Shown: positions 1-13,865, numbered from the stretch's first letter. The stretch: DNA of 64,000 nt from an uncultured Acidobacteriota bacterium (GCA_963697745.1 CAVOPD010000009.1:20898-84897), one strand, 5' to 3'. The notes: generated by a model not told the origin, from the letters alone. Program-made: numbers and translations.

Positions 1-2229
1 GTGGCGGTCGCGGCGGCGGCGGACCGGGGTCCTGCGGGCCTCGATGGCGAGGAAGTGCATGACCGCCGAGACGACGAGGGGCACGGTGAAGATCGCCGCG
101 ACCGGCGGGATGGCCGCACCCGAGTCGTTGGTGAGGAAGCCGATGACGGCCATGATGATGACCGAGACGAGGCCTCGGTGCAGGAGCGGAGCCTCGAGCA
201 GCAGGCGTCGCAGCGGCTCGGTGCCGAGGATGCCGGGCCGGGCCACGATCGCCACGGCCACCACCATGAGCACGAGGACGAGGACGAGCAGCACCGGCAG
301 GTTGGCCGCGAGCGAGACGTTGGCCCACAGCTTGCGGCTCACGACGTCCCACGCCCCGCCGTCGAGGACGGTCTGGAGGAAGCGGCCGGGGTGCGATCGC
401 TCCGCCACGGGCCGGCGCCAGTCGAGGTAGCAGACGAGGCCCACGACGAGACCGGCCACGAGCGCGACGATCCCGAGGTTGCGCGCCGAGGTGCGCCAGC
501 CCATGACGCCCATGAGGAGGTACCCGAGCGCCGGCACGAGCGCGATCGGGCCGCCGAAGTCGGCGCCCCACGCCGGCAGGACGTCGACCGCGAGGGCGAC
601 GCCGCCGACGACGACCACGGCGACGACGGCCAGCCGGGGGGAGTCGCGACGCACCATCGCGTGGGCGAGCGCGGCGCACAGCAGCAGGACGGCGGCGGCG
701 TACACGGCGAAGGCGACGTTGCCCATGCCGTAGAAGCGACCACCCACGAGCGGTTGGAGGCCGAAGATCGACGAGATCTGCAGGTTCGAGCCCGTCAGCA
801 GGTCGATGCCGATGACCCCGGCGGTGATGGCCGACATCGCGGCGAGCGGCCCGAGGGCCGAGGTGCTCCACGGACCTCGCAGGCAGGCGAGGGTCAGCAC
901 GGCGCTGATGACGAGCACGAGTGCCAGGGCAGAGCGACGAGCACCGCCGTCGTCGTCGACGTGCGCCACCACGGCACGAGGTTCGCGAGGAAGGTCGCGG
1001 CCGGCATGGCCGACGACACGAGCCCGACGAGCCGGACCAGCCGCAGCACGCGCGCCCGCGTCATCCGCCGGTTCCACGGACTGGCGCGGCGCAGGACGAG
1101 CCAGAGGACGAACATCGCGATCACGGTGCCGCCCAGCCAGATGACGAGGAACGGCCCGACGATGCGGTGCATCGCGTCGGCCTTGGTGTCGATGTCGGTC
1201 AGGGCCGTCAGCTTGCTCGCGGCGGTCGACTCGCTGTTGTTGGCCGAGGGCACGACGCTGAGCGCGCGACCCCCGATCTCCGTCGTCGGCTCCACACCGC
1301 CGCGCTGGAGGATCGTCGCCGTGATGTCGGAGAGCTGGGCCACCCCGACGAGCCGCGTCGAGGCGGACGCGAGCAGTCCGGGGCCGTAGTGCGGCCCGCT
1401 CGCCGTCAGCAGCCGGAGCCGCTCCTGCTGGTCGCGGTCGGCGAGGCCGACGACGACGAGGTCGGCCCCGTTCGGCATCGCGTCGAGCACGAGGTCGATG
1501 CGACGTTCGATGCCGTTGATCTGCTCGAGATGACGCGTCGGGTCGGGGTCGGTCGCGTCGATGCCGCCGACGTCGACGATGCTCACCGGGCACTGCGCGA
1601 GGTCCGAGGTGAGGGTCGTGGCCTGGTAGGGCGCGTACTTCGCGACCCGGCCGTCAGACGTCGCCGCGGCCAGACCCGCCCCCGGGCCGATGGCCTGGAT
1701 GCACGTCTTGGCGGCCGTGAAGCTGTCGCCGAGCAGGCCGAGGTGGGCCCGGAACTCCGCCTCGCGCGACGCCGTGGCGCAGGGCGTCGAAGCCGACGAC
1801 GCGGTGGCCCGTCGTGTCGTCGCCCGCGACCGACGGCAGCGGCGCGCACACAGGACGGGCCTCGCTCGTGGCCGGGCCGGCCGCCTCGCCCGCCGAGACG
1901 GTCGCCCACCCGTCGGTGGGGCACGTCGTGAGCCGCAGGCTCTTGACCGACACGGACGCGGCCGCGCCGTCGCGCAGCAGACCCCACAGGATCGGAGTGT
2001 CCTCGGCCGACACGTCGTCCCACGAGAGTCCGCCGAGCCCCACGACGACGAGGGACTGACCGGGCTGGGGCTGGGTCGTCGGCGGCACGGGCACGGTGGT
2101 CCGCTTCGCGTACGCGAGGGTGAGGGCAGCCACCAGCACGAGCAGCAGGACGACGAGCGTCTTGACGGGATGGCGGCGGATCACGGGAGAAGAGTACAAA
2201 CCGCACCTGTTCGGAACCGCCGGGGTCAC
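1..2229 (-). pseudogene. Conserved membrane protein, partial at the left edge and frame-broken. It has an N-terminal signal-anchor, an extracytoplasmic domain and a C-terminal polytopic region. Function not recognised.
   Basis: ORF pieces 1654..2229(-) (anchor TLVVLLLVLVAALTLAYA, then SLVVVGLGGLSWDDV) and 894..1586(-) (ending in TM text IVGPFLVIWLGGTVIAMFVLWLVL) read as consecutive parts of one protein in different frames. My hand translation of 1..240(-) gives hydrophobic GLVSVIIMAVIGFLTNDSGAAIPPVAAIFTVPLVVSAVMHFLAIE with no stop before position 1. A possible true start is GTG at 2184. Confidence 0.5.
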
Positions 2230-2271
2230 GGGATGGAATGAGGCGGTTCGACACGGCCGCCGCGGCTACCC

Positions 2272-2838
2272 TTGCCGATCGTGGACGACTCGACGCTGAC
2301 GATCCTGGCCGTCGCGGCCGTCGTCGTGGCGCTGCTCGCACTCGCGCTCGCGGTCGGGGCCCAGCAGCGGCTCGCCCGCGTGCGGCGGGACTTCGCCGCC
2401 CTCGGTGACGACGGCGCCACCGACATCGCCCGCGTCGCCGCCACCCAGAACCACCGCATCGACCGGCTGACGGCCGAGGTGGGCCAGCTGCGCGACCACC
2501 TCGAGAGTGCCGAGGACGACGTTCGCCAGAGCCTGCGCAACGTCGCGGTGGTCCGGTACGACGCGTTCGGTGACATGGGTGGCCGGCTGTCGTTCTCCGC
2601 CGCCATCGTCGACGACCTCGGCGACGGCATCGTGCTCAGCTCGATCCACGCTCGCGGCGAGTCGCGGACGTACGCCAAGGGCATCGTCGGCGGTCGCTCG
2701 AGCATCACCCTGACCCCCGAGGAGCAGCAGGCGCTGGCCTCGGCCACCAAGGACGAGCCGGGCACGAGCCGCGCTGCCCGTTCCACCCGCGCAGCCCGCT
2801 CCACCCGCCAGCCCGACCGGACGAAGGACGCGTCGTGA
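2272..2838 (+). CDS. DUF4446 domain protein (membrane-anchored)
   Basis: Intact 188-aa ORF with an N-terminal TM helix (ILAVAAVVVALLALALAV). The core VVRYDAFGDMGGRLSFSAAIVDDLGDGIVLSSIHARGESRTYAKGI is one I recognise as DUF4446. Its stop overlaps the pheA start (GTGA at 2835-2838). Confidence 0.75.
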   Translation: MPIVDDSTLTILAVAAVVVALLALALAVGAQQRLARVRRDFAALGDDGATDIARVAATQNHRIDRLTAEVGQLRDHLESAEDDVRQSLRNVAVVRYDAFGDMGGRLSFSAAIVDDLGDGIVLSSIHARGESRTYAKGIVGGRSSITLTPEEQQALASATKDEPGTSRAARSTRAARSTRQPDRTKDAS

Positions 2839-3783
2839 CACCGCCCCGCACCCCCGACCAGCTGCACCGCTTCGGCTACCTCGGACCGCGCGGCACGTTC
2901 ACGCAGATGGCTCTCGACGCGTGGGACGCCGCCGAGGGTCGGGAGCACCTCCCGTTCGGCTCGGTCGACGCGGCGCTCGCCGCGCTGCGGGCCGGTGACA
3001 TCGACGCCGCCATGGTGCCGATCGAGAACTCGGTCGAGGGCGGCGTGTCGGCGACCCTCGACTCCCTCGCCACCGGTGAGCCGCTCGTCGTCCTCGGCGA
3101 GGTGCTGGTGCCGATCACCTTCGTGCTCTGCGCGCCGGCCCGGGGTGACGCTCGACGACGTGCGCACCGTCGGCACCCACTCGCACGCGTGGGCGCAGGT
3201 ACGCGGGTGGATGAGCGAGCACCTGCCGCAGGCGGAGTACGTGCCGACGCTCTCGACGGCCGCGAGCGCGGCCGCTCTCGGCCAGCCGGGCGAGGTCATG
3301 TTCGACGCCGGCGTGTGCGCGCCCGTCGCGGCCCGGAACGAGGGCCTCGAGGTCCTGGCCGACGGCATCGGCGACAACGCGTCGGCCGTCACCCGCTTCG
3401 TGCTCGTGTCGCGGCCCGGCACGCTGCCCGAGCCGACGGGGGCCGACAAGACGACCGTCGTGCTGTTCCAGAAGGACGACCACGCCGGTGGCCTGCTCGA
3501 GCTGCTCGAGCAGTTCGCCGTGCGCGGCGTCAACATGACGCGGCTCGAGTCGCGCCCGACCGGTGCGGCGATGGGCTCGTACTGCTTCTCCATCGACTTC
3601 GAGGGCCACGTGCTCGACGCGCGGGTCGGCGAGACGCTGATGGGACTGCGCCGAGTCTGCGCCGAGGTGCGCTTCCTCGGCTCCTACCCGCGCGCGGACG
3701 GCGCGCGCGCCGAGGCGCGGCCCGGCACGACGGACACCGACTTCGACCGCGCGAGAGTCTGGCTGGACGAGCTGCGGGCCTGA
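2835..3783 (+). pseudogene. pheA: Prephenate dehydratase with one frame change near 3130-3140
   Basis: The PDT domain text FGYLGPRGTFTQMA...AMVPIENSVEGGV lies in the 2835 frame. It continues in the 2995..3783 frame (RPGVTLDDVRTVGTHSHAWAQ), followed by the ACT domain GLLELLEQFAVRGVNMTRLESRPT...YCFSIDFEGH. One extra base in the run gcgccggcccgggg would explain the shift. Confidence 0.85.
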
Positions 3784-3846
3784 GCCCTCGGCTACCCCTG
3801 TCGCCGCGGACTCCTGCGGGCATCACGCATCCGCACCGAGCGGTCG

Positions 3847-4650
3847 TCAGCCGATCGTCGCGCCCATCTTGAGCAGGAAGAGTGTCTCGTCGCCGACGAC
3901 GCCGTCGTCACCGACGCGGTTGGCCTGCTGGAAGCGCTGGACGACCCGCTTGGTCTCGGCTCCGAAGACGCCGTCGACGGCGATCGTGCCGCCGGCGGCC
4001 CGCAGCGCCCGCTGGAGGGTCGCGACGCTGGGGCCCTTCGCGCCCGTCGCGAGCGTCTCGCTGCCGAGCGACCGGGAGATGAGCAGCACCCAGACGCCGG
4101 CGTCGACCCGGCCCGGCTTCGGTGCGGGGCCCTCGTAGGTGGCCTCGACCCGCTTCATGGCGGCGCGGGTCTGGGGACCGTAGACCCCGTCCACCGCGAC
4201 AGGGCCGTAGTCGGCGTCGTCGAGGAAGCACTGGAGCGCGCGGACCGCGGGGCCCGTCGCGCCGGGCTGGAGCACGGGGTACGCCGTCAGCGTGCGCTCG
4301 CACGCGCCTGCCACGGAGCCCGCGTCCGTCGTCGACGTCGCCGTGGGCGTGGGGGCCGTCGCGGTGGTGCTCGTGACCGACGGCGTCGATGATGCCGTCG
4401 GTGTCGGCCGGGTCGGCGTCAGCGGGTCGGCCGTGGCGGTCGGCACGGGACCGGGGGAGGTCGGATCCGGCCCGGCGACGGCGGTCGACCCGCTCGCGGT
4501 CGGCGACCCGGCGGTCGGCGCGGCGGTCGGGTTGGCCGTCGGCGATGCCGAGCTGCAGCCCGCGAGCGTCACCGCGAGTCCCAGCGCCAGCACGAACCCG
4601 TGCACGCGTCGTGTGCCCGAGCTGCCGCCCGAGCATGCCAGCCGTCCCAT
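3847..4650 (-). CDS. Secreted lipoprotein with a Pro/Thr-rich linker and two peptidoglycan-binding-like repeats
   Basis: An internal ATG at 4650 gives MGRLACSGGSSGTRRVHGFVLALGLAVTLAGCSS, a signal peptide with a lipobox Cys. A PT-rich linker follows. Two repeats then match the PG_binding_1 pattern: GATGPAVRALQCFL...VDGVYGPQTRAAMKRV and GAKGPSVATLQRALRAAG...VDGVFGAETKRVVQRFQ. Confidence 0.7.
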   Translation of the reverse strand: MGRLACSGGSSGTRRVHGFVLALGLAVTLAGCSSASPTANPTAAPTAGSPTASGSTAVAGPDPTSPGPVPTATADPLTPTRPTPTASSTPSVTSTTATAPTPTATSTTDAGSVAGACERTLTAYPVLQPGATGPAVRALQCFLDDADYGPVAVDGVYGPQTRAAMKRVEATYEGPAPKPGRVDAGVWVLLISRSLGSETLATGAKGPSVATLQRALRAAGGTIAVDGVFGAETKRVVQRFQQANRVGDDGVVGDETLFLLKMGATIG

Positions 4651-4750
4651 CGAACTCCCTGTCCTCCTGCGTGTGCGCCCCCGAGCGGACGTTGGAGCAG
4701 TATGCGCCGAGCGACCGACCGAAGCGAGCGACGCGGCCGGGGCCGGTCCG

Positions 4751-4788
4751 GGCCGGTCCGGACAGGTCCGGACAGGGGAGGGGGCGCC
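4751..4788. repeat. Degenerating 10-nt tandem repeat in the divergent intergenic region
   Basis: Read directly from the sequence: GGCCGGTCCG GGCCGGTCCG GACAGGTCCG GACAGGGG. Confidence 0.5.
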
Positions 4789-4936
4789 GGTGCTGCCAGC
4801 CCGGCGCCCCACGGATCCGGGCTGCCCCCGCCTCCCAGAATCCCCTGTCGGTCACCGAGCCGGCTGCCCCTCCGCAGCCCCCCACGAGCAGCCCGGTGAC
4901 CGTTCCCCCTGCACGCCAGAGTCGCCATCACGCGGT

Positions 4937-4982
4937 CTGATACATCCCGCCGCGAAAAAGTTCGATCGGGACGATGTATCAG
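4937..4982. promoter_or_regulatory. Perfect 10-bp inverted repeat (CTGATACATC-N26-GATGTATCAG) about 70 nt upstream of the S8 peptidase start
   Basis: Left arm at 4937-4946, right arm at 4973-4982. The arms are AT-rich in an otherwise very GC-rich region. Immediately downstream is GGAAA (4982-4986)-N17-GTC (5004-5006), which resembles an ECF-type -35/-10 pair. Any function is an inference only. Confidence 0.3.
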
Positions 4983-5051
4983 GAAAGCGAGTACGGACAC
5001 TCAGTCGGTGACAGGGTCTTTCCCAGACCACACGCTTCCAGGAGGTAGTCG

Positions 5052-6677
5052 ATGTCTGAGTCGGGTCCCGACGCCCCCCGGGGTGCGAACGGCGAGGGAG
5101 CAGCAGGCGGCTCGCGCCGCCCCGAGCGCCCGCCGGTCCGCGCCCTCGACCCGGCCACGGCGATGCGCCTGACCGACGGTCGTCCGCCGCTGCCCGCGCT
5201 CTACCTCTCCGACCGGCTGCTCGTGCGCAGCGCCTCCGGCGGCGGGAGGACCCGCGGCATCGACGACCTGCGCGCGGCGCTCGGACGGCTCGACCTCGAC
5301 TTCGACGTGACCCCACGCGCCGACGGCAGCCCGCGCGACCTCGACGAGCCCTCGTGGGGCACGAGCATCACGCTGCGCCCGACCCGGTCGCCCATCGACC
5401 CCGTCGATGCCTGGAGCGTGCTCCAGCGCCTGCGCGGGTCGGGCGACCCGGTCGCTGAGCTGCTGAGCCTCGAGCACGTCCTCCGCCCGGCGGACGGGTA
5501 CTGGGGCGGCATCGGCTACTGGGCGGGGTCGGCTACTGGGGCGGTGTCGGCGGTTACTGGGGCGGCGTGGGCGGCTACTGGGGCGGCGTCGCGAGCTCGG
5601 CGCTGCAGGAGTACGCCGTGCCCGGGCGCGGCGGCCGGATGCCGGTCGCCCTCACCCTGCCCGACCCGGCGCTGCGGGCCCGTCCGCTCGACCGCACCCC
5701 CGTCGTCGTCGTGCCCGACACGGCCGTCGCGGCCCACCCGTGGTTCACGGACGGGTCGAGACTCGTGCGCCTCGAGCTCAAGGACGGGCACCTCGTGCCG
5801 GTCCGGCCCACTCCGCCCGCCCCGCCCCCGGCCACCTCGGGGGGCGCCCCCTCGGGCACCGCGGCCCCCTCGAGCGAGTCCCTCACCTCGACGCCTCCGC
5901 CGAGCGAGCCGGTCGGCCTGCTCCAGGGGCACGCGACCTTCATCGCCGGTCTCGTGCGACAGGGATGCCCCGAGGCGACGATCGTGTCGATCCCGGTCAT
6001 GGGCGACGACGGCGTCGTCGACGAGAGCGTCATGCTCGACGTGCTCCAGGCGCTGCTCGACCGGCACGTGCACGGCCAGCAGAGCGGGCCCGAGTCGGAC
6101 GTCGTCGACGTGCTCTCGCTGTCGCTCGGCTACTACGCCGAGGACCGCACCTACACCTCCGGTCCGGTGGCCGACCTGCTCGACCGGTTCGCCGAGCACG
6201 GCGTCCTCGTCGTCGCCGGAGTCGGCAACGACGGCACGACCGCGCCGTTCGTGCCGGCTGCGCTCGCGGCCGACCCGCCCAAGCGGGTCACCGCGAAGTC
6301 GGTGCCACCGCTCGCGAGCGTCGGCGCCACCAACCCCGACGGGGTCACCGTCGCGCTCTTCTCGACAACCTGCCCGTCGTCAGCGCGGTCCGCGCCGGTG
6401 TCTCGGTGGTCGAGCACGCTCCCGCTGACCAACGGGATGGGCCAGCCGTCGTCGCAGGTGACCACGGACGGCACCGTGCGCTGCACCGTCGACCCCGACG
6501 ACTACACCGGTGGCTTCGGCGTGTGGAGCGGCACGTCGTTCTCCGCCCCGGTCTTCGCGGCAGAGCTCGCGGCCGCCCTCATCGAGCAGGGTGACCTCAC
6601 CGACGTCTCGTCGTCCCGCCATGCGCAAGCGCGCCATCCGCGCCTTGCGCACCTGCATCGGAAAGGTGAAGTCATGA
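5052..6677 (+). pseudogene. Subtilisin-like S8 serine peptidase with an N-terminal domain and a GYWGG repeat linker; at least 3 frame changes
   Basis: ATG at 5052 follows GGAGG. Catalytic-type motifs are present: VVVVPDTAV (Asp), GHATFIAGLV (His), GVGNDG (oxyanion Asn) and GTSFSAPVFAAELA (Ser). The pieces lie in ORFs 5052.., 5567.. and 5740.., with shifts near 5524, 6365 and 6412. The 3' end is uncertain; one frame ends TGA at 6675-6677, overlapping the sigma ATG. Confidence 0.8.
5496..5587 (+). repeat. In-gene tandem repeat encoding about five GYWGG units
   Basis: GG(G/C/T)TACTGGGGCGG recurs at about 5496, 5514, 5531, 5552 and 5573. The second copy has GGG where the others have GGGG, which is where the frame breaks. 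Confidence 0.8.
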
Positions 6678-7253
6678 CTCCGACCCCCACGGCCCCCGAC
6701 GGCCTCGGCACTCTCGCGGGCAAGGCGTTCGCCGCGTATCGCGCGGGCGAGCGCGAGCGTCTCTCGGAGCTCGTCGACCTCGTCACCCCCGTGCTGTGGA
6801 ACGCCGCGCGCTCGCAGGGCGGGTCGCCGGCCACGTGCGAGGACGCCATCCAGACGGCCTTGCCTCCAGCTCGACCGCGCCGAGTCGATCAACGAGCCGG
6901 CGGCGGTGCTCGGGTGGCTCGTCGTCGTCGTCAAGCGCGAGGTGTGGCGCCTGGGGCGCGGCTCGCGCCGCGAGATCGGCGTCGACGAGGTGCCCGAGGC
7001 CCCGACGCAGCAGCTCGACCCCGAGGCGCAGTCGATCCTCACGGAGCGCCAACGCGTGCTGTGGACGCACGTGTCGACCCTTTCGCCGCGGTGCCAGGAG
7101 CTGCTCCGGGTCATCGCGTTCGCCGACCGGCCCGACTACGCGGCCATCGCGCAGTCGTTGGGGATGCCGGTCGGCAGCATCGGCCCGACCCGTGGCCGGT
7201 GCCTGCAGAAGCTGAGGACGACCCTCGGCTCCGACCCCGGATGGGCGGTCTGA
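6674..7253 (+). pseudogene. ECF-type sigma-70 family factor with one frame change near 6850
   Basis: ATG at 6674 follows GAAAGG. Region-2-like text is LVDLVTPVLWNAARSQGGSPATCEDAIQTA. After the shift comes LGWLVVVVKREVWRLGRG. Region 4 is LSPRCQELLRVIAFADRPDYAAIAQSLGMPVGSIGPTRGRCLQKLR. Confidence 0.75.
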
Positions 7254-7254
7254 C

Positions 7255-7729
7255 ATGACATCGCACACCGACGCCATCGATGCCCGCGACATCGCCAACC
7301 TGCGACCAGATCCGTGACCTGTTCGCCCATGCGGACCCGGTCCCGGCGACCTGGCCGAGCGGATCAAGTTCGAGATCAGGTCCGTGCGCTGCAGGCCGAG
7401 GTCGCCGAGGGCATGGACTTCGCCCTGCCGACGACGCGCGGCGCGGACGTCGAGTCGAGCCGACGCCGACCGACTCGGTGACCTTCACGGCCGCCTCGGT
7501 CAGCCTCATGGTGTCGGCCGGACCGAGCGACTCCGACGACGCCGACGACCGCGTTCGGGTCGACGGCTGGGTCACGACGCCGGGCGCCCAGATCGAGGCC
7601 GTGACGTCCGAGGGCGAGCTCGACCATCATTTCGGATGCGATGGACGCTTCGTTCTGGAGGATGATCTACCCCACGGGCCGGTGCACTTCGTCGTGACCG
7701 ACCCGACGACAACGACGTGCGACCGGTGA
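7255..7729 (+). pseudogene. Small protein downstream of the sigma factor; candidate anti-sigma or partner protein, frame-broken
   Basis: ATG at 7255 lies 1 nt after the sigma stop. The N-terminal text MTSHTDAIDARDIANL is broken by shifts. The C-terminal 100 aa are coherent: DSVTFTAASVSLMVSAGPSD...VDGWVTTPGAQIEAVTSEGELDHHFGCDGRFVLEDDLPHGPVHFVV. No family recognised; the role is inferred from position only. Confidence 0.4.
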
Positions 7730-7789
7730 TCACCCGACGATCCAGATCTGAACCGGATCAGGACCGGCGCCTGACGAGAGGCCGGCGGG

Positions 7790-10394
7790 AACCATCGATC
7801 TGCTCGAGCGCCCGACGACCTGCGCGAGCAGGGTGCGGACCGACAACGTGGCCGGACGGCCGTCGAGGCGGCGCGCTCGCTGACGGCCGCCCTCGATGAG
7901 ATCGGCGCGTCGCGGGCGAGGCGCCATCCCGGGAAGCGGCTCGAGCGCTCTGAAGACGCTCATCACGCTGGCGCTCACCGAGTTCATGCTTCGGTTCGAG
8001 GCGGCGACCGATCGCCTCGGGGAGGCGGAGGAGCCGTCGACGCGCTCGGTGACGATGCCCTCCCGGCTCGCGTCGACTACCAGCGGGCCAACGTCCACGG
8101 CCGGGTCGGCGACCTCGCGTCGGCCTGGGACGGGCTCGACGGCGCGGTGCGGCCGGCTCGACGCGTTCACCGAGCACGAGCAGTGCTCGGTCCACCTGAG
8201 CCCGGGGCATGCTCGCGTTCGCGCGCTCGCCGCACGAGGCGCTCGAGTCGTTCGCGGAGGCGGCGCCGTCTCGCGCACGACCTCGGTGCGGGTCGAGCAG
8301 GAGTTCATGGCTCGCACGACGAGGGTATGCCGCCCTACCTCCTGCGTGAGACCCCCGCGTCGCTCGCCGGCATGTCCATCGCAGAGGAGCCGACGCCGAT
8401 GTCTTCCGGGCGCCGGGCGGCTCGACCGGTGCCCGGTCATGCTCGAGGCGGGCCTCGTCAAGGAGGCCGTCGAGGCGCCTGCACGTCGGCCTCGCCGACC
8501 TACCGGCGAGGGCACGACCAGGTGCGCGCGGAGTTCGAGCTCGAGCTCGCGCGGGCCCACCGGCTGCTCGGTCACCTCGATCTCGCGTCCGAGGCGGCGA
8601 CGTCGGCCCGGGAGATGTACGGCGTTCGGCGCGACCGCCTGGGCGGCCAGGCCATGCTCGTCGGACTGCTCATCGACCTCGACCGGCAGCGGCGCCCACG
8701 ACGTGAGCGGAGCGGGACGATCGCCGACGCGACCGGTGGCGCTCGCCGCCGCGGGCACGGCTGACGCGCTCACCGAGACGGCGACCGAGCTCGGCGACCG
8801 AGTTCGCCGACAGCGCGGGGCGGTCGCGGCCCAGGCCCTCCTGTTCGCCGGGATCGTCGCCGGCGCGAACACCCGCCTGCTCAGCCTCGAACGGGTTCGA
8901 CCACGTCGCTGTCCGACGAGCTCGATGCCGCCACCGTGACGGCCATGACGCTGTCGCCACCGGGACCCCGCGCCGGCCCGACGCATCCTCGTGCGCGCCT
9001 GCGCGTCGGCTCGGCGGCGGGCAGGAGGGCAGTGCGAGCCTCGACCTGCGTACGGCTCGTGCGCTGCACGGCGCCCGGCTCTCCGAGCTGGACCTCGAGC
9101 TCGCCGTGCCGCGCGGCAGCGGGGCGGTCCTCGAGGCGCTCGAGCGGTGGCGCAGCGCGACCGACCGGCTCCCGTCGCTCGGCCGCCCCGACGACGAGCA
9201 GCTCGCCGTGCTCACCGAGCAGCTCCGGGCCGTCCGCGGTCACGTCCGTGCGAGTCCGACCCGGCCCAGGCGCGCGAGCTGCACGACCACGCCTCGCGTC
9301 TCGAGCGGCAGATCCGTGACCGCGACTGGGCGCTGAGCCGCAGCGGCGGCGCGTCCCGCACCGTGCCTGTCCGGTCCGGGAGGCCCGGGAGCCAGCTGAC
9401 CTCGGCCGACCGCGACCTCGTGTGGTTCTTCCGTGCATCGCGGTCGCCTCGGTGCCGTCGGCATCATCGGCGGCCGCGCCGCGGTGCGTGACCTCATGCC
9501 CGTCGACCGTGCCGTCGAGCTCGCGCAGCGCATCCGGGTCGACCTCCGGGCGGCCGCCACCCACCACCTCGGCCCCCTCGGCGCCGCCGTCTGGTCGTCG
9601 CTGCGCGCGAGCGTGGCGGAGCTCGACGACGCCCTGATGCGGCCGTGGCGCTCGCAGCGGGGTCTCGTCGTCGTGACGTGCCCCGAGCTGTCCGCCCTCC
9701 CGTGGGCGCTGCTGCCCTCGATGGTCGGGCGGCCCTTCACGGTCGCGCTCTCGTTGACGTCCTTCGCGCCGACGGGGTGTCCCGGACCGCTCCGCCGGTG
9801 GTGGCTCGCCGGTCGGAGTTCGGCGGTCTTCGCCGCGGTCGAACGGCTCGGCGTTCGACCGGCGTGCACGTCGACGTCGGGCCCGCGTGCCGCGTGCCTC
9901 GGCCGAGGGCGGTCGATCGTCGGCACGTGGGGGCCGGAGCCCGCTCGCCGAGCCGTCGCGCCGCGCCGACCTCGTCGGCGCGCTGACCCGACCCCGGCAT
10001 CGTGCACGTCGCGGCGCACGGCACGCACCAGGTCGAGTCGCCGTTGTTCTCCTCGTGCACCTGCACGACGGGCCCGTCTTCGCCCACGAGCTGCAGCCGA
10101 CGGGCGTGCGCGCCGACCACGTCGTGCTCTCGGCCTGCGAGGTCGGGCTCGCCTCGGCCCGTCCCGGCCACGAGTCGCTGGGGCTCGCGCTGTCGCTGCT
10201 CTCGCTCGGCGCGCGCTCCGTCGTCGCCGCGGTCGCGCCCGTGCCCGACGACGTCGCGGCCTCGACGATGACGCGCCACCACGAGCTGCTCGCCTCCGGC
10301 CTGCCGAGCGACGAGGCCCTCGCCCGAGCCGTCGCCGAGACCGACGACCTCGGCGGCCGCCTTCCTCAACCTCGGCGGCCAGCACCGCCCCTGA
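7790..10394 (+). pseudogene. CHAT-domain (caspase-like) protein with an N-terminal helical-repeat region; many frame changes; 5' limit unresolved and it could be two genes
   Basis: The region 9433..10394 contains LVVVTCPELSALPWALLPSMVGRPFTVALS, the His motif HVAAHG, the Cys motif VVLSACEVG, ESLGLALSLLSLGARSVVAAV, and a C-terminal AAFLNLGG followed by TGA at 10392-10394. These are spread over three frames. Upstream + strand text is helical and repeat-like: AEFELELARAHRLLGHLDLASEAATSAREMYG, LSELDLELAVPRGSGAVLEALERWRSATDRL, ARELHDHASRLERQIRDRDW. Confidence 0.65.
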
Positions 10395-10547
10395 CGGCCC
10401 ACCTCGGTGCGCACTCGATCGGGCTCCGCTCAGGAGAACGGTCGAGTGCGGAGTCCGGCGCCGACCCACGGGGCCCGGATCTTGCTACGGTTCGGGCGCA
10501 GATCGAGTGCGCAGTTCGGCGCGTACCCACCGGGCACCCGAGGCTGC

Positions 10548-11800
10548 TCAAATTCGAGGCCGAGTTCCGCGCGACCCAACGGGCATCGACAGGTGCGCAT
10601 CGAGTAGCCCACTTCCGCTCGACCAGGGGCGCCATCGACCTACGAGGCGGCGCGGATCGCCCTCATCTCGTGCCCGCTTGCGCATGGCCATGGCGAGCGC
10701 GATCTTGCGGGCGTCGATGAGATCTCGCGGAGCATCCCCGAGATGGGGTTCGTGAAGCCGATGTACCAGAGCCCTTCGCGCCGCGGGCGGTCCGGCCGCC
10801 GCCCTCGACCGGCCGGCCGCGCTCGTCGAGCACGCCGAGGTCGCCGAGCAGCGGATCGAGGCCCTGGCTGTAGCCGTCGGCGAGCACGACGACGTCCGGG
10901 TCGATGCGTCAGCCGTCCGCCAGCACCACGGCGTCACCGTCGAACCGCGGAGGGCGGCCACCGGCTCGACCGCGCCCGCCCGGATCGCGTCGATGATGCC
11001 GACGTCCTGCACGGGGATCGCGTTGTCGCGCTCGACCCGTGTCAGCAGCCCGGTGTCGGCCTCGGCAGGCCCTGGCGCTGAGGTTCGGCGTCTGGAGCCG
11101 TTCGACCACGGCCGCCGCGCCGTCGACGAAGGCGGCGGGCAGCCGGCGGACGGCGATGCCGGTGTACTGGGCCGGTTCGGCCCGGTGTTGCGGCGCAGGA
11201 TGTGCGGCACCGTGCGCACCGCGAGGCGCATCCGCGTCGCACCGTGGTCGGCCAGGTCGACGGCGAGGTCGGTGCCGGTGTTGCCGCTGCCGACGACGAG
11301 GACGTCCTGGCCGGCGTGCTCCGAGCCGTTGCTGACGTGCCGGCGAGGACGATCTCTCCCGAGTAGCCCTGCAGTCCCGGCACGTCCGGTCGCGCGGCGT
11401 GTGGTTGAAGCCCGTCGCGACGACGACGTAGGGGGCCGTCAGGGTCGTCCCGTCCTCGGGCGTCAGCGTCCAGCCGACCGTCGGGCGATCGGTCGAGGCG
11501 GCGCACCCCGGTGCCGAGCCGGACGTCGAGCCGTGGTGGGCGGCATACAGCTCGAGGTAGCGCACGACGTCGTCGCCGGCGACCCAGCGAGCCATCTCCT
11601 TCGGATCGGCAGGCCGGGCAGGCCGGACAGCCGCGAGGCGTGTGGAGGTCGAGCCGCTCGTAGTGGCCACGCCAGAGCTGCCGATGCTGTCGCTGCGCTG
11701 AGGACGACGCCGTGCAGGCCCCGCTCTCAGGGCGTCGGCGGTCGCCAGGCCCTCCCGGGCCCGCTTCGATGATGTTCACGTCGACCGGGACACTTCGCTG
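10548..11800 (-). pseudogene. Flavin-dependent monooxygenase / NAD(P)-binding oxidoreductase (FMO/CzcO-like); multiple frame changes
   Basis: Recognisable fragments lie in three minus-strand frames. They are VDVNIIEAGPGG (first dinucleotide motif), WRGHYERLDLHTP, DDVVRYLELYAAHHG, YVVVATGFNHTP, GQDVLVVGSGNTGTDLAVDLADHG (second Rossmann), DGDAVVLADG and EGLWYIGFTNPISGMLREI. Both ends are approximate. Confidence 0.65.
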
Positions 11801-11980
11801 GGTCAGCCGGACAACGTATCCGTCCGCCGCCCGACTTCTCGGCAATCGCGCACCAATCCAGTCTCGCGGCCCATGCTCGACGGGTGACCCCTCCGTCGGT
11901 CCCGATGCCCAGGCGGTCGGGGGCCGCGCGAACATGTCACTCGCGAGCGGATCGGCGAGGGCCGCGCCGCGCGCGTCGCG

Positions 11981-12745
11981 ACCCTGGTGACGATGCTCGA
12001 CGCGCAGGAGCAGGAGCTGCCGGTGCCGCGGCTGCGCGCGTCGGCCCTCGACGTGGTCGCGCCCCTGCCGGGGGAGTCCGCGGTCGACGTCGGCTCGGGC
12101 ACGGGACGGAGGTGCGACGCCTCGACGCTGCGGTCGCGGCCAACGGCGGCGCCGTCGGCGTCGAGCCGAACCCGGCCCTTCGCGCTGAGGCCGTGCAACG
12201 GATCGCGCTGCTCGGGTCGAGCGCGACGTGCGTCGACGGTGACGCGGCCGACCTCCCCTTCGCGAACGGGTCGGTGCACGTGCTGCGCTGCGAGCGGGTG
12301 TTCCAGCACCTCGCCGACCCGCAGGCGGCCGCGAACGGGTTCGCTCGCGTGGTCGCGCCCGGCGGCCGGTCGCCGTGTCGACAGCGACTGGGGCACGTCA
12401 TCACCCACCCCGGCGACCCGGACCTCGTGCGCGGCTTCAGCGAGTCGAACTGGCGGCGATGCCCAACCCCTTCGCGCCGCCGCACCTGCCCCACCAGTTG
12501 CGGTCGGCGGGGCTTGCCGTCGACCACGACATCGGCTCGGCCGCGCTCATCATGCCGGCCAGGGCGCTGCTCGGCAGCGGCGTCATGCACGCGAACGCGA
12601 TGCGGCGGTCGAGGAGGGCGCGCTGACCCGGGCGAGGCCGACCGGCTGCTCGCCGAGCCGATGGCCGGCGCTCGCGCCGGGCGGGCCTTCTTCTCCGTGA
12701 CGATGTTCGGGTTCATCGGGCGCAAGCCAGCTCGACCCGTCCCTA
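11981..12745 (+). pseudogene. Class I SAM-dependent methyltransferase, frame-broken
   Basis: LDVVAPLPGESAVDVGSGTG (motif I) is followed, in another frame, by GGAVGVEPNPALRAEA...CVDGDAADLPFANGSVHVLRCERVFQHLADPQAAANGFARVVAPGGR. The C-terminal text includes FFSVTMFGFIGRK. The 3' end is not resolved. Confidence 0.65.
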
Positions 12746-12749
12746 TGGC

Positions 12750-13413
12750 CGCCCTCGGCCGTGCTGAGGTGGGCCTCGAGCCAGTCCCGAGCGGCCGCAC
12801 CGCCCGCCAGGTGTCACGCACCACGGTCAGGGTGCGCCGCGTCGAGAGCCAGGCCGGCGCGCCGAAGTCGCGCACGACCATGAGCCCTTGTGACGGACCA
12901 TCTCGATGCGCGGGTGGTTAGCGGCGTACCCCCTCGGGTTCGTCTCCACGAAGTCGCCGATGAGGTCGAAGTCCTTCGCGCGCAACGCCTCGAGGATGCC
13001 GTCGGGCACCGCTCCGGTGGCCGGTGCGTCGACCGCCGCGCGGAAGCGGGAGGTCTGCGCCGGGCTCGTCGTGCGGAAGCCGCCGCCGGCGCGCAGGCCG
13101 TCGGCGCTCACCTGCACGTGGTCGCGCGGCTCGTGCCGGCGCCGAGGAGCGCCCCCTGGTGCGTCTTGTAGGGCGACTTGTCGGCACTGAAGCGCACGTC
13201 GCGGTTCGGCCGGAAGAGCTTCGCCTCGCCGAACTCGTCCTCGAGGCCGTCGAGGAGCGCGGCATCGGCTCGCGGACGTCACGGTGGTACGCGGCCTTGT
13301 GGCCGAGCCACCAGTGCGCGAGTTGTCGTCCTCGAGCTCTGCGTAGAAGGACAGGGCGCCGGGCGGGAAGCCGGAGAAGGGGGCGGGCGGCCGATGTGAC
13401 GACTCTGACACCG
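12750..13413 (-). pseudogene. DUF2461 (TIGR02453-like) protein, frame-broken
   Basis: Fragments are FSGFPPGALSFYAELEDDNSR, ALLDGLEDEFGEAKLFRPNRDVRFSADKSPYKT (hand-translated), HVQVSADGLRAGGGF and ILEALRAKDFDLIGDFVETNPRGYAANHPRIEMVRHKG. Both ends are approximate. Confidence 0.7.
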
Positions 13414-13509
13414 GGACCGAGCTTGTTAGGCAAGGCTTACCTGTGCTTTCCTCGAATTCCGTCACTTCGTCATGGCGTAATTGCTGAGAACGATCGAGAG
13501 AAGGCACCC

Positions 13510-13865
13510 GTGCTCGCGGCAACGCGCTCATCGGTCTCCGGAGAGGGACTCGAGGCCGCCCTCGTCGTCGTCATCCTCGTCGCCCTCCTCGTCAAGACCG
13601 ACCGCCGTTCGGCGCTGCGCCACGTGCGGTCCGGCGTCGCCGTCGCCGTCACCCTCTCGGTCGCCTCGGCGCCCTGCTCACCTACGGCACGCAGCGCTGA
13701 CGTCGAGGCCCAGGAGCCGTCGGCGGCACGGCCTCGATCATCGCGGTCGTCTTCGTCACCTTCATCGTCTTCTGGATGAAGTTCGGCCTCGCGCACCATC
13801 TCGGGCGAGCTCAAGGGCAAGCTCGACCGGGCCCTCGACCTGGGCCCGTTCGCGTCGTCACCGCC
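13510..13865 (+). pseudogene. FTR1/EfeU-type iron permease; 5' fragment only, frame-broken and truncated at the composition junction
   Basis: GTG at 13510. The text GEGLEAALVVVILVALLVKTDRR matches the REGLE-type motif region. It is followed by SIIAVVFVTFIVFWMK and ISGELKGKLDRALDLGP in other frames. Only about 118 codons remain before the sequence character changes. Confidence 0.6.

What the first reader, a model, noticed from the sequence alone, without database searches (positions are those of the whole stretch)
5052..10394. Co-directional cluster of S8 peptidase, ECF sigma, small partner protein and CHAT (caspase-like) protein
Four + strand genes follow one another with minimal spacing. The sigma ATG at 6674 sits at the end of the S8 gene. 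The partner ATG lies 1 nt after the sigma stop.

Two different protease types retain apparently complete catalytic motifs. S8 has DTA / GHAT / GNDG / GTSFSAP. CHAT has HVAAHG / LSACE. They flank a sigma/anti-sigma-like pair.

CHAT proteases with helical-repeat N-termini are typical of bacterial conflict and programmed-death-type systems, and regulated proteolysis is the usual way ECF sigmas are released. A protease-gated transcriptional switch or conflict module is therefore plausible. I do not know a characterised example with this composition.

Caveat: all four genes carry frame changes as sequenced. The 5' half of the CHAT gene (7.8-9.4 kb) is only partly readable.
Basis: partly seen in the sequence, partly recalled or inferred. 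Interest (0 to 1): 0.6.

Follow-up and report, generated by a model that had tools for sequence, protein, structure and literature searches.

The report
ECF54-type sigma factor two-protease operon
This is a real, widely conserved four-gene actinobacterial operon (pro-subtilase, ECF sigma factor, small partner protein, TPR-CHAT protease) that genome surveys already list as sigma group ECF54 but nobody has tested; here it sits on a mis-joined, error-rich contig end, which explains its broken reading frames.

Summary
Window 5052-10394 encodes, on the + strand, an S8 peptidase, an ECF sigma factor, a ~165-aa partner and a TPR-CHAT protease. All catalytic motifs are present.

The 41 frameshifts are assembly artefacts. 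The first 34.75 kb of the contig is a chimeric Terrabacter-like segment joined to a 66%-GC genome. Indel density jumps to about 10 per kb in all genes over the last 6.5 kb before the junction.

The same four genes are intact and adjacent in 76 of 76 sigma-anchored loci. They recur in several actinobacterial orders with permuted order and in different neighbourhoods. Sigma plus the small protein is the invariant core.

The composition matches what a review reports for group ECF54 (carboxypeptidase-regulatory, subtilase and CHAT neighbours, with proposed control by proteolysis). No experimental study was found. An earlier follow-up in this scan reached the same identification on other DNA.

Added here:
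- The S8 is a cytoplasmic pro-subtilase with an I9-like prodomain and a Gly/aromatic repeat tether.
- The partner has two helices, a disordered linker with an invariant Arg, and an Ig-like domain.
- A promoter-like motif, TGTATCA-N16-18-CTC, always precedes the first gene of the operon.

The mechanism (a proteolysis-gated, self-amplifying sigma switch) is inferred, not shown.

The parts
4913..4946 (-). Left-facing copy of the promoter-like motif (reverse complement reads GATGTATCA-N16-CTCTGG). In this context it faces the PG_binding_1 lipoprotein gene.
   Evidence: A leftward GTATCA is present in 62 of 69 loci. What it faces varies between contexts, so its function is uncertain.
4973..5006 (+). 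Operon-facing promoter-like motif GATGTATCAG-N-CTCAGTC (candidate -35 TGTATCA, candidate -10 CTC(A/T)G). It lies about 45-75 nt upstream of the S8 ATG.
   Evidence: GTATCA is present upstream of the first gene in 69 of 69 loci with enough sequence. It tracks the first gene whether that is S8 or sigma. The hexamer is expected about 0.03 times per 450 nt at this GC content.
5052..6677 (+). Cytoplasmic pro-subtilase (S8). It has an I9-like N-terminal prodomain, a Gly/aromatic repeat tether and a catalytic domain. It carries 4 frameshift errors, near 5523, 6365, 6412 and 6614.
   Evidence: Pfam PF00082. It is 78% identical to the intact 524-aa Terrabacter protein. D/H/N/S are invariant in 74 sequences. 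The AF2 model has pTM 0.83 and its best PDB matches are unprocessed pro-subtilisins. There is no signal peptide or TM helix.
5496..5587 (+). GYWGG(V/I)G tandem repeats, forming the disordered tether between the prodomain and the catalytic domain. One frameshift error lies inside the repeats.
   Evidence: The corresponding residues 148-200 have pLDDT below 50. The repeat sequence differs between lineages (GQFGGIG, GKGGTYIPGI, GxPYMGGG) but the feature is conserved.
6674..7253 (+). ECF-type sigma factor (sigma2 + sigma4, 193 aa), with 1 frameshift error near 6863.
   Evidence: The ortholog scores 65.7 bits on TIGR02937 sigma70-ECF (cutoff 42.9) and has Sigma70_r2. The window copy matches 179 of 192 aligned residues of the Terrabacter protein.
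7255..7751 (+). Small sigma partner (~165 aa): two N-terminal helices, a disordered linker with an invariant Arg, and a C-terminal Ig-like (CarboxypepD_reg-like) beta-sandwich. It carries 8 frameshift errors.
   Evidence: It is adjacent to sigma in 24 of 27 phylum-sampled loci.
7844..10394 (+). TPR-CHAT protease (~850 aa) with 28 frameshift errors. The start codon is uncertain (~7835-7844).
   Evidence: The ortholog hits CHAT PF12770 at 1.4e-24. The N-terminal half matches solved TPR proteins down to 4.5e-27. The His/Cys dyad is invariant.
13854..13855 (.). Chimeric assembly junction. To the left is a Terrabacter-like 73.5%-GC segment; to the right is the 66%-GC host genome.
   Evidence: Collinearity with Terrabacter ends at 13,854. 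Identity with the end of contig C5 begins at 13,855.

Best explanation
What it is: one copy of a conserved actinobacterial four-gene module.
- A cytoplasmic pro-subtilase (S8).
- An ECF sigma factor.
- A small partner protein (two helices, a flexible linker and an Ig-like domain).
- A TPR-CHAT cysteine protease.
- The module is preceded by its own promoter-like motif.

The composition is what the literature reports as the genomic context of sigma group ECF54. In this assembly the module lies on a 34.75-kb Terrabacter-like segment wrongly joined to an unrelated 66%-GC genome. Its many frameshifts are sequencing errors.

Most likely mechanism (inferred, not shown):
1. The small protein holds the sigma factor inactive through its N-terminal helices.
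2. A cytoplasmic cue sensed by the TPR-CHAT protein triggers proteolysis. The likely targets are the partner's disordered linker (invariant Arg62-Gly63) and/or the tether of the pro-subtilase, which would then be activated.
3. The freed sigma factor transcribes the operon from the TGTATCA-N16-18-CTC promoter, giving a self-amplifying switch.

Shown here: gene content, conservation, domain folds, intact catalytic residues, cytoplasmic location and motif conservation. Inferred: all protein-protein and protease-substrate relations.

The confidence of 0.55 blends about 0.9 for the identity and the artefact reading with about 0.45 for the mechanism.
For: Conservation:
- Intact orthologous operons occur in Terrabacter, Humibacillus and Propionicimonas.
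- 76 of 76 sigma-anchored loci have all four genes wherever the contig reaches.
- The same genes occur in permuted order and other neighbourhoods in Jatrophihabitans-type genomes, Calidifontibacter and Nonomuraea.
- In a phylum-wide sample, sigma is adjacent to the small protein in 24 of 27 loci, CHAT is nearby in 20 and S8 in 18.

Proteins:
- The sigma meets TIGR02937.
- The S8 catalytic residues are invariant, and the model matches unprocessed pro-subtilisins over prodomain plus catalytic domain.
- The CHAT dyad is invariant and the N-terminal half is TPR.
- None of the four proteins has a TM helix or signal peptide.
- The partner model shows two helices, a disordered linker with invariant R62, and an Ig-like domain.

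Promoter motif: it lies upstream of the first gene in 69 of 69 loci and follows the first gene when gene order changes.

Literature:
- PMC8999054 sec. 3.3 describes ECF54 with carboxypeptidase, subtilase and CHAT neighbours and proposed regulation by proteolysis.
- A TPR-CHAT protease cleaving a sigma inhibitor is an experimental precedent (PMC10028731).

Artefact:
- GC step.
- Collinearity with Terrabacter ends at 13,854.
- Identity with contig C5 starts at 13,855.
- Indel density is about 1.3 per kb before 7.3 kb and about 10 per kb after it, in all genes.
Against: - No experiment exists for any member of this module.
- The partner has no recognisable anti-sigma domain. The NCBIfam 'antisigma' hit is E = 0.0017, far below cutoff. 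Foldseek finds only generic Ig-like folds.
- Casas-Pastor et al. (PMC7826278) describe ECF54 as lacking a clear regulator and lying near a 4Fe-4S protein. I did not see such a protein in the six annotated contexts.
- Group assignment by the ECF Hub model could not be run. The primary ECF54 paper (Huang et al. 2015) is not held.
- The proteases could be outputs of the sigma factor rather than its regulators.
- S8 and CHAT are missing near some distant sigma-partner pairs.
Confidence: 0.55

Rival explanations
1. The two proteases are the output, not the gate. The sigma-partner pair responds to an unknown cytoplasmic cue by some other means (partner switching, ligand binding to the Ig-like domain). 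The role of the sigma factor is then to raise expression of a cytoplasmic pro-subtilase and a TPR-CHAT protease, which remodel or destroy cellular proteins.
For: All four genes lie behind the same promoter-like motif. A genome-wide pattern search finds essentially no other sites: 1-4 hits per genome against 0-3 in controls. The operon may therefore be the whole regulon. Sigma plus partner occur without a nearby S8 or CHAT in several distant loci. PMC7826278 warns that neighbours may be targets rather than regulators.
Against: CHAT is retained near the sigma-partner pair in 20 of 27 sampled loci despite shuffled order and strand. Some arrays have several partner/S8/CHAT sets for a single sigma (L099, L100), which looks like multiple inputs to one sigma. 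There is experimental precedent for a TPR-CHAT protease cleaving a sigma inhibitor (PMC10028731).
Confidence: 0.25
2. It is an anti-phage or abortive-infection conflict module. TPR-CHAT senses an invader, a protease cascade (CHAT to pro-S8) is unleashed, and sigma-driven positive feedback amplifies it to arrest or kill the cell.
For: The distribution is patchy: about 6.5% of sampled Actinomycetota. Neighbourhoods and gene orders vary and paralogous arrays occur. There are weak sequence links to Csx29 and to the S8 protein IetS of a defence system. CHAT cascades and sigma release are known in CRISPR-linked defence (PMC10028731; bioRxiv 10.1101/2023.06.23.546230; PMC11506125).
Against: No PADLOC system matches. 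There is no genuine plasmid or phage carriage: the only hits are a mislabelled chromosome and an unverified contig. The neighbours are housekeeping genes, not defence islands. The position is syntenic across Terrabacter, Humibacillus and Intrasporangium, which suggests stable vertical inheritance. No CRISPR, CBASS or nucleotide-signalling genes are adjacent.
Confidence: 0.15
3. The cluster is a decaying pseudogene remnant in this organism, and the frameshifts are real mutations.
For: There are 41 frame changes in 5.3 kb. The reads could not be inspected.
Against: - The same indel density (about 10 per kb) affects the unrelated neighbours FMO, DUF2461 and FTR1 up to the junction.
- All events are single-base. 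No stops appear after correction, and amino-acid identity to Terrabacter stays at 82-93%.
- The two assembled copies of the host locus (C5 and C9) differ by 21 gaps in 3 kb.
- Genome completeness is only 74.5% with 21 contigs.
Confidence: 0.04

Closest known systems
ECF sigma group ECF54 (Huang, Pinto, Fritz & Mascher 2015; Casas-Pastor et al. 2021, PMC7826278; summarised in PMC8999054 sec. 3.3)
   Same: It is an actinobacterial ECF sigma with no canonical anti-sigma. Its reported conserved neighbours carry carboxypeptidase-regulatory-like, subtilase and CHAT domains, which are exactly the three partner genes here. Regulation by proteolysis has been proposed and the group is uncharacterised experimentally.
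   Different: Assignment by the group's own model could not be run. Casas-Pastor et al. mention a nearby 4Fe-4S protein, which I did not see in the contexts examined. The literature I could read does not describe the pro-subtilase zymogen architecture, the two-helix/linker/Ig build of the partner, or the TGTATCA-N16-18-CTC motif.
Craspase arm of type III-E CRISPR: Csx29 (TPR-CHAT), Csx30, Csx31 and CASP-sigma (PMC10028731)
   Same: A TPR-CHAT protease is encoded beside an ECF-like sigma and a non-canonical soluble sigma inhibitor. Cleavage in a flexible loop relieves inhibition, and the locus is positively autoregulated by the sigma factor.
   Different: There is no Cas7-11 or CRISPR array and no RNA guide. 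The partner is ~165 aa and unrelated in sequence to Csx30. A second protease (S8) is present. The Csx29 match is only E = 1.6e-5 over ~80 residues of the CHAT core.
DdvS/DdvA of Myxococcus xanthus (PMC11506125)
   Same: It is an ECF sigma controlled by a protein bearing a TPR-CHAT module, with proposed CHAT-mediated cleavage preceding sigma release.
   Different: In DdvA the TPR-CHAT is periplasmic and fused to a transmembrane zinc-binding anti-sigma, and RseP is needed. Here the TPR-CHAT is a separate cytoplasmic protein, the partner has no Zn motif or TM helix, and an S8 protease is added.
Pro-subtilisins with an I9 propeptide (e.g. Pro-Tk-subtilisin 2e1p/3wiv, pro-subtilisin E 3whi, PCSK9)
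   Same: The N-terminal beta-alpha-beta-beta-alpha-beta prodomain is docked on an S8 catalytic domain with a complete Asp/His/Asn/Ser set. These are the best Foldseek matches, over 470-540 columns.
   Different: There is no signal peptide, so the protein is predicted to be cytoplasmic. A ~55-residue disordered Gly/aromatic tandem-repeat tether lies between prodomain and catalytic domain. The gene is embedded in a sigma factor operon.
Type III-B SAVED-CHAT to PCaspase cascade with PCc-sigma (bioRxiv 10.1101/2023.06.23.546230), and CalpL/CalpT/CalpS as described there
   Same: The concept is a protease cascade in which one protease activates a second, with a sigma factor among the linked components.
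   Different: Those systems are triggered by cyclic oligoadenylate through SAVED domains and sit in CRISPR loci. The second protease is a caspase or Lon, not a subtilase.

Membership tests
ECF54 sigma group and its conserved context | Sigma factor with ECF architecture (sigma2 + sigma4 only) | tested here: met
   TIGR02937 sigma70-ECF scores 65.7 bits against a cutoff of 42.9. Sigma70_r2 hits at 2.7e-7. The protein is 193 aa with no extra domains.
ECF54 sigma group and its conserved context | Neighbouring genes with carboxypeptidase-regulatory-like, subtilase and CHAT domains (as stated in PMC8999054 sec. 3.3) | tested here: met
   PF13620 (2.9e-6, below the gathering score), PF00082 and PF12770 fall on the three neighbours. 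They are adjacent in 76 of 76 loci and in distant lineages.
ECF54 sigma group and its conserved context | Actinobacterial distribution | tested here: met
   Record titles name Terrabacter, Intrasporangium, Humibacillus, Terracoccus, Nostocoides, Propionicimonas, Micropruina, Jatrophihabitans, Calidifontibacter and Nonomuraea.
ECF54 sigma group and its conserved context | No canonical anti-sigma factor (ZAS or transmembrane) beside the sigma gene | tested here: met
   The partner has no zf-HC2 hit and no TM helix, and shows only a sub-threshold NF052375 hit at E = 0.0017.
ECF54 sigma group and its conserved context | Assignment by the ECF Hub group model, or clustering with the named ECF54 member (SFT86700.1, Geodermatophilus amargosae) | not testable with these tools
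   No ECF Hub models are available. Huang et al. 2015 is not held. No named Geodermatophilus hit appeared among the top 120 homologs.
ECF54 sigma group and its conserved context | A 4Fe-4S protein encoded nearby (PMC7826278) | tested here: not met
   No Fer4 or WhiB-type Pfam family is listed among the neighbours in L002, L003, L004, L082, L083 or L084. Only precomputed Pfam lists were inspected.
Craspase (type III-E Csx29/Csx30/CASP-sigma) | TPR-CHAT protease physically and genetically coupled to Cas7-11 and a CRISPR array | tested here: not met
   No cas genes appear in any of the annotated contexts. The Csx29 model scores 24 bits against a cutoff of 300.
DdvA-type TPR-CHAT anti-sigma | A single transmembrane protein with an N-terminal zinc anti-sigma domain and a periplasmic TPR-CHAT | tested here: not met
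   The TPR-CHAT and the partner are separate genes. Neither has a TM helix: the maximum 19-residue hydropathy is 1.84 or less and lies inside the catalytic fold.
Subtilase zymogen (S8 with I9-type propeptide) | Complete Asp/His/(Asn)/Ser catalytic set | tested here: met
   D224, H277, N376 and S479 are invariant in 74 sequences. The motifs are present in the window copy.
Subtilase zymogen (S8 with I9-type propeptide) | N-terminal propeptide domain with the beta-alpha-beta-beta-alpha-beta fold packed on the catalytic domain | tested here: met
   In the AF2 model, residues 28-146 have this topology at pLDDT of about 90 and the model pTM is 0.83. The top Foldseek hits are unprocessed pro-subtilisins aligned over 470-540 columns, E = 1e-11 to 1e-10. 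This is a prediction only.
Subtilase zymogen (S8 with I9-type propeptide) | Secretion signal (typical of classical subtilisins) | tested here: not met
   The N-termini are polar and have no hydrophobic segment.
Known anti-phage defence systems (PADLOC-DB 2.0) | Component proteins match a system's models | tested here: not met
   Only weak partial hits were found (IetS 1.9e-4, BovA 7.6e-3, Cas3 5.3e-3). Nothing hit the sigma or the partner.

The most novel reading that the evidence does not exclude
The module is a self-contained, CRISPR-independent counterpart of the Craspase/CASP-sigma arm. A cytoplasmic TPR-CHAT sensor protease starts a two-protease cascade: it activates a tethered pro-subtilase and cleaves the partner at its invariant Arg-Gly linker. 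This frees a dedicated sigma factor whose only target is the operon itself. The result is an all-or-none burst of proteases that decides cell fate (dormancy, developmental switch or abortive infection) in soil actinobacteria.
Probability: 0.3. Interest if true: 0.65.

Novelty: new member of a known kind. Interest (0 to 1): 0.3.

Why it matters
ECF54 is among the ECF sigma groups for which no regulator has been demonstrated. The analysis here turns a vague 'proteases nearby' note into specific, testable statements:
- Which protein probably holds the sigma factor (the two-helix/Ig-like partner).
- Where it may be cut (the invariant Arg-Gly in a disordered linker).
- That the subtilase is a cytoplasmic zymogen with a repeat tether.
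- That a TGTATCA-N16-18-CTC element is the likely autoregulated promoter.

If confirmed, it would be a new soluble anti-sigma type and a bacterial two-protease cascade controlling transcription outside CRISPR systems.

For the scan itself there is a second lesson. This contig end is chimeric and unpolished, so features in window 1-13,854 belong to a different organism from the rest of the genome. Frameshifts there carry no biological meaning.

Tried and rejected
- Plain tblastn could not place the frameshifts, because at 74% GC the wrong frames stay open. I replaced it with a frameshift-aware dynamic-programming alignment.
- The 40 'relatives' of the host genome lack the S8. This first looked like an accessory gene but is explained by the chimera.
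- PADLOC shows no system.
- Rfam on window 4600-5100 gives nothing meaningful.
- PDB sequence searches give nothing significant for the partner or the sigma factor.
- A Foldseek search with the partner model finds only generic Ig-like domains, so a canonical anti-sigma fold is not supported.
- I tried to tie the sigma factor to the named ECF54 member from Geodermatophilus. The primary paper and supplements are not held. The top 120 sigma homologs were all Jatrophihabitans-like.
- A regulon search with TGTATCA-N15-18-CTC in four genomes gave 1-4 hits against 0-3 in controls. The extra hits have no consistent placement upstream of genes, so no wider regulon can be claimed.
- A conserved gene or RNA downstream of the left-facing motif copy was not found. 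It faces a lipoprotein gene, antisense rplA or non-coding DNA depending on context, and is missing in some loci.
- Plasmid or phage carriage is rejected. The hits are an 11.85-Mb 'plasmid' that is a chromosome, and an unverified 74%-GC contig holding only these four genes.

Full report
**1. What is in the window**

The region is about 74% GC, so open frames appear on every strand. A third-position GC plot shows + strand coding from 5052 to about 10,400, with repeated frame switches. Pfam on the window's own pieces finds Peptidase_S8 (4e-11, 5459-6670) and CHAT (4e-15, 9758-10717).

I aligned the window against intact orthologs with a frameshift-aware protein-to-DNA alignment. It resolves four genes:
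- S8 at 5052-6677.
- Sigma at 6674-7253. Its ATG overlaps the S8 stop as ATGA.
- The partner at 7255-7751. Its ATG lies 1 nt after the sigma stop.
- TPR-CHAT at about 7844-10394.

The 'unreadable' 7.8-9.4 kb is the TPR half of the CHAT gene, not minus-strand genes. The window copy needs 41 single-base frame corrections (S8 4, sigma 1, partner 8, CHAT 28). It has no in-frame stops afterwards and keeps 82-93% amino-acid identity to Terrabacter.

**2. The frameshifts are an assembly artefact on a chimeric contig end**

- The host assembly (5.5 Mb, 21 contigs) is only 74.5% complete. It is 65-67% GC on every contig, yet C9:1-34,751 (window 1-13,854) is about 73.5% GC.
- Window 1-13,854 is collinear with Terrabacter loci at about 81% nucleotide identity. 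The homology stops at 13,854.
- From window 13,855 onward, C9 is 98.8% identical (21 gaps in 3 kb) to the end of contig C5. Left of that point C5 continues in 60-64% GC DNA. The host genome's true neighbour is therefore on C5, and the Terrabacter-like segment is mis-joined.
- This explains why none of 40 'relatives' has the S8.
- Frameshift density is about 1.3 per kb in window 1-7,300. It rises to about 10 per kb from 7,300 to the junction. The unrelated neighbours are affected too: FMO-like 19, DUF2461 8, FTR1 at least 6.

The errors track the junction, not the cluster.

**3. The four genes are a conserved unit**

- Intact S8 homologs of about 524 aa exist in Terrabacter (78% identity), Humibacillus, Intrasporangium and, more distantly, Propionicimonas and Jatrophihabitans.
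- Their contexts show S8 (524-530 aa), sigma (189-193), a small protein (155-167) and CHAT (828-857) in Terrabacter and Humibacillus, syntenic with the window. The same order occurs in Propionicimonas in an unrelated neighbourhood.
- Anchoring on sigma, 76 of 77 loci from the species-level genome collection are orthologous. Every one has all four genes in the same order wherever the contig reaches.
- More distant members keep the gene set but not the order or place. In Jatrophihabitans-type genomes the order is sigma, small, S8, CHAT, inserted between rplA and rplJ. Another MAG has S8, sigma, small, CHAT beside rplA. Calidifontibacter and Nonomuraea hold the module in other contexts.
- In an even sample of 400 Actinomycetota genomes, 26 (6.5%) have a homolog of the small protein.
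- In the 27 loci from those genomes, sigma is directly adjacent in 24. A TPR-CHAT gene lies within 8 kb in 20 and an S8 in 18. The S8 is a full pro-S8 in closer members and a shorter catalytic-only S8 in distant ones.
- Two genomes have arrays with one sigma but two or three partner/S8/CHAT sets.

Sigma plus partner is the invariant core.

**4. The proteins**

*Sigma.* It meets the ECF superfamily model TIGR02937 (65.7 bits, cutoff 42.9) but no named subgroup.

*S8.*
- Asp224, His277, Asn376 and Ser479 are invariant in 74 sequences.
- The AlphaFold model (pTM 0.83) has an N-terminal beta-alpha-beta-beta-alpha-beta domain at residues 28-146. A disordered Gly/aromatic repeat tether follows at 148-200, and then the catalytic domain.
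- The best PDB matches are unprocessed pro-subtilisins aligned over prodomain plus catalytic domain.
- The tether is conserved as a feature, but its repeat unit differs between lineages: GYWGGVG, GQFGGIG, GKGGTYIPGI and GxPYMGGG.

*Partner.*
- The model (pLDDT 80.7) has helices at 10-26 and 33-62, a disordered linker at 60-74, and an Ig-like beta-sandwich.
- Arg62, at the helix/linker boundary, is invariant in 54 sequences.
- Foldseek gives only generic Ig-like hits.
- Family hits are sub-threshold: CarboxypepD_reg at 2.9e-6 and 'antisigma' NF052375 at 0.0017.

*CHAT protein.*
- PF12770 hits at 1.4e-24, and the His/Cys dyad is invariant.
- The N-terminal half matches solved TPR proteins down to 4.5e-27.
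- There is a weak Csx29 hit at 1.6e-5.

*All four.* None has a TM helix or signal peptide. No PADLOC system matches.

**5. A conserved promoter-like element**

Upstream of the first gene, every context carries an inverted pair: CTGATAC(A/G)T, a spacer of 22-95 nt, then (A/G)TGTATCAG. Read outward, each half is followed after 16-18 nt by CTC(T/A)(G/A).

- The operon-facing GTATCA is present in 69 of 69 loci with enough upstream sequence, and the left-facing one in 62. The hexamer is expected only about 0.03 times per 450 nt at this GC content.
- The element precedes whichever gene comes first, S8 or sigma. In the arrays a second copy sits ahead of sigma.
- In the window the two copies lie at 4913-4946 (- strand) and 4973-5006 (+ strand).
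- In four carrier genomes the pattern occurs only 1-4 times, against 0-3 for a reversed control. The module's own site is among the hits. No wider regulon is evident.
- The left-facing copy has no consistent target.

This refines the earlier first-reader note, which proposed GGAAA-N17-GTC. GGAAA is not conserved outside the Terrabacter group, whereas TGTATCA is.

**6. Comparison with what is known**

[quoted passage not shown] 2015 and Casas-Pastor et al. 2021 (PMC8999054). This is the gene set found here.
- Casas-Pastor et al. add that ECF54 has no clear regulator and lies near a 4Fe-4S protein (PMC7826278). I did not see such a protein in the contexts examined.
- The primary paper is not held and the ECF Hub classifier is unavailable. 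Membership therefore rests on architecture, taxonomy and context.
- Functional analogues with experiments:
  - Csx29 (TPR-CHAT) cleaving Csx30 to relieve inhibition of CASP-sigma (PMC10028731).
  - The fused transmembrane TPR-CHAT anti-sigma DdvA (PMC11506125).
  - The SAVED-CHAT to PCaspase cascade (bioRxiv 10.1101/2023.06.23.546230).
- This module is a member of none of these. It has no CRISPR or cas genes, no TM or Zn anti-sigma domain, and no SAVED domain.
- An earlier follow-up in this scan (e1-3989730) reached the same ECF54 identification on other DNA. My identification was reached from the sequence, the contexts and the review before I saw that note.

**7. Mechanism and verdict**

Shown:
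- A conserved, probably co-transcribed set of four cytoplasmic proteins.
- Two intact protease active sites.
- A zymogen-like S8.
- A sigma partner with a flexible, Arg-marked linker.
- A motif that behaves like the operon's promoter.

Inferred:
- The partner sequesters sigma.
- The TPR-CHAT (sensor) and the S8 (a zymogen activated by loss of its prodomain) remove the partner.
- Freed sigma amplifies the operon.

The main rival is that the proteases are outputs rather than gates. A defence role is possible but lacks contextual support: there is no defence island, no genuine plasmid or phage carriage, and the position in Dermatophilaceae is syntenic.

The finding is real, but it is an ordinary member of a catalogued though untested module. 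In this assembly it is compromised by a chimeric, error-rich contig end.

Noticed in passing
window 13854/13855 (C9:34751/34752) and C5:162472-165540: This is a chimeric contig. Left of the junction is 73.5%-GC Terrabacter-like DNA. Right of it is host DNA that is also present, 98.8% identical with 21 gaps, at the end of contig C5. Everything in window 1-13,854 belongs to a different organism from the rest of the genome.
   Followed up: yes
G000 contig C5:1-7000: The first ~7 kb of contig C5 is also 71-77% GC, against 65% for the rest of the contig. This may be a second foreign, mis-joined end in the same assembly.
   Followed up: no
window 7300-13854: There is a step change in single-base indel density, from about 1.3 per kb to about 10 per kb. 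It affects all genes up to the junction (FMO-like 10645-11937, DUF2461 12753-13466, FTR1 13498-13854). This is consistent with a stretch supported by one unpolished read.
   Followed up: partly
L097 = MT838002.1 (phage collection), 1-7478: The record labelled 'UNVERIFIED: Bacteriophage sp.' from a faecal virome is 74% GC. It carries the same S8, sigma, partner and TPR-CHAT genes at 9-4713. It looks like actinobacterial chromosomal DNA rather than a phage.
   Followed up: partly
L096 = NZ_LT559118.1:5027253-5039633 (plasmid collection): The Nonomuraea gerenzanensis 'plasmid I' is 11.85 Mb, so it is the chromosome filed as a plasmid. It carries a complete module at locus positions 3828-9105, without the GTATCA motif upstream.
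   Followed up: partly
L099 (6246-17372) and L100 (5858-17637): Arrays with a single sigma but two or three partner genes, two S8 genes and two TPR-CHAT genes in tandem. This suggests several protease/partner input sets converging on one sigma factor.
   Followed up: no
L082 5862-11272; the JGI contig; L083 7001-12241: In Jatrophihabitans-type genomes the module is inserted between rplA and rplJ inside the secE-nusG-rplKA-rplJL block. In another MAG it directly follows rplA. The left-facing motif copy then points antisense into rplA.
   Followed up: no
window ~4870-4935 (and the equivalent in L002, L003, L004): Conserved GC-rich hairpins lie between the lipoprotein gene and the motif pair. One has a CCCTCC (anti-Shine-Dalgarno-like) loop, seen in both the Terrabacter and the Propionicimonas contexts. 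No Rfam match was found.
   Followed up: partly
L004 8112-9001: The 890-nt gap upstream of the Propionicimonas module contains several copies of a repeated element. Translated on the minus strand it reads ...SSRWTVCREFTAF... It is probably a REP-like intergenic repeat.
   Followed up: no
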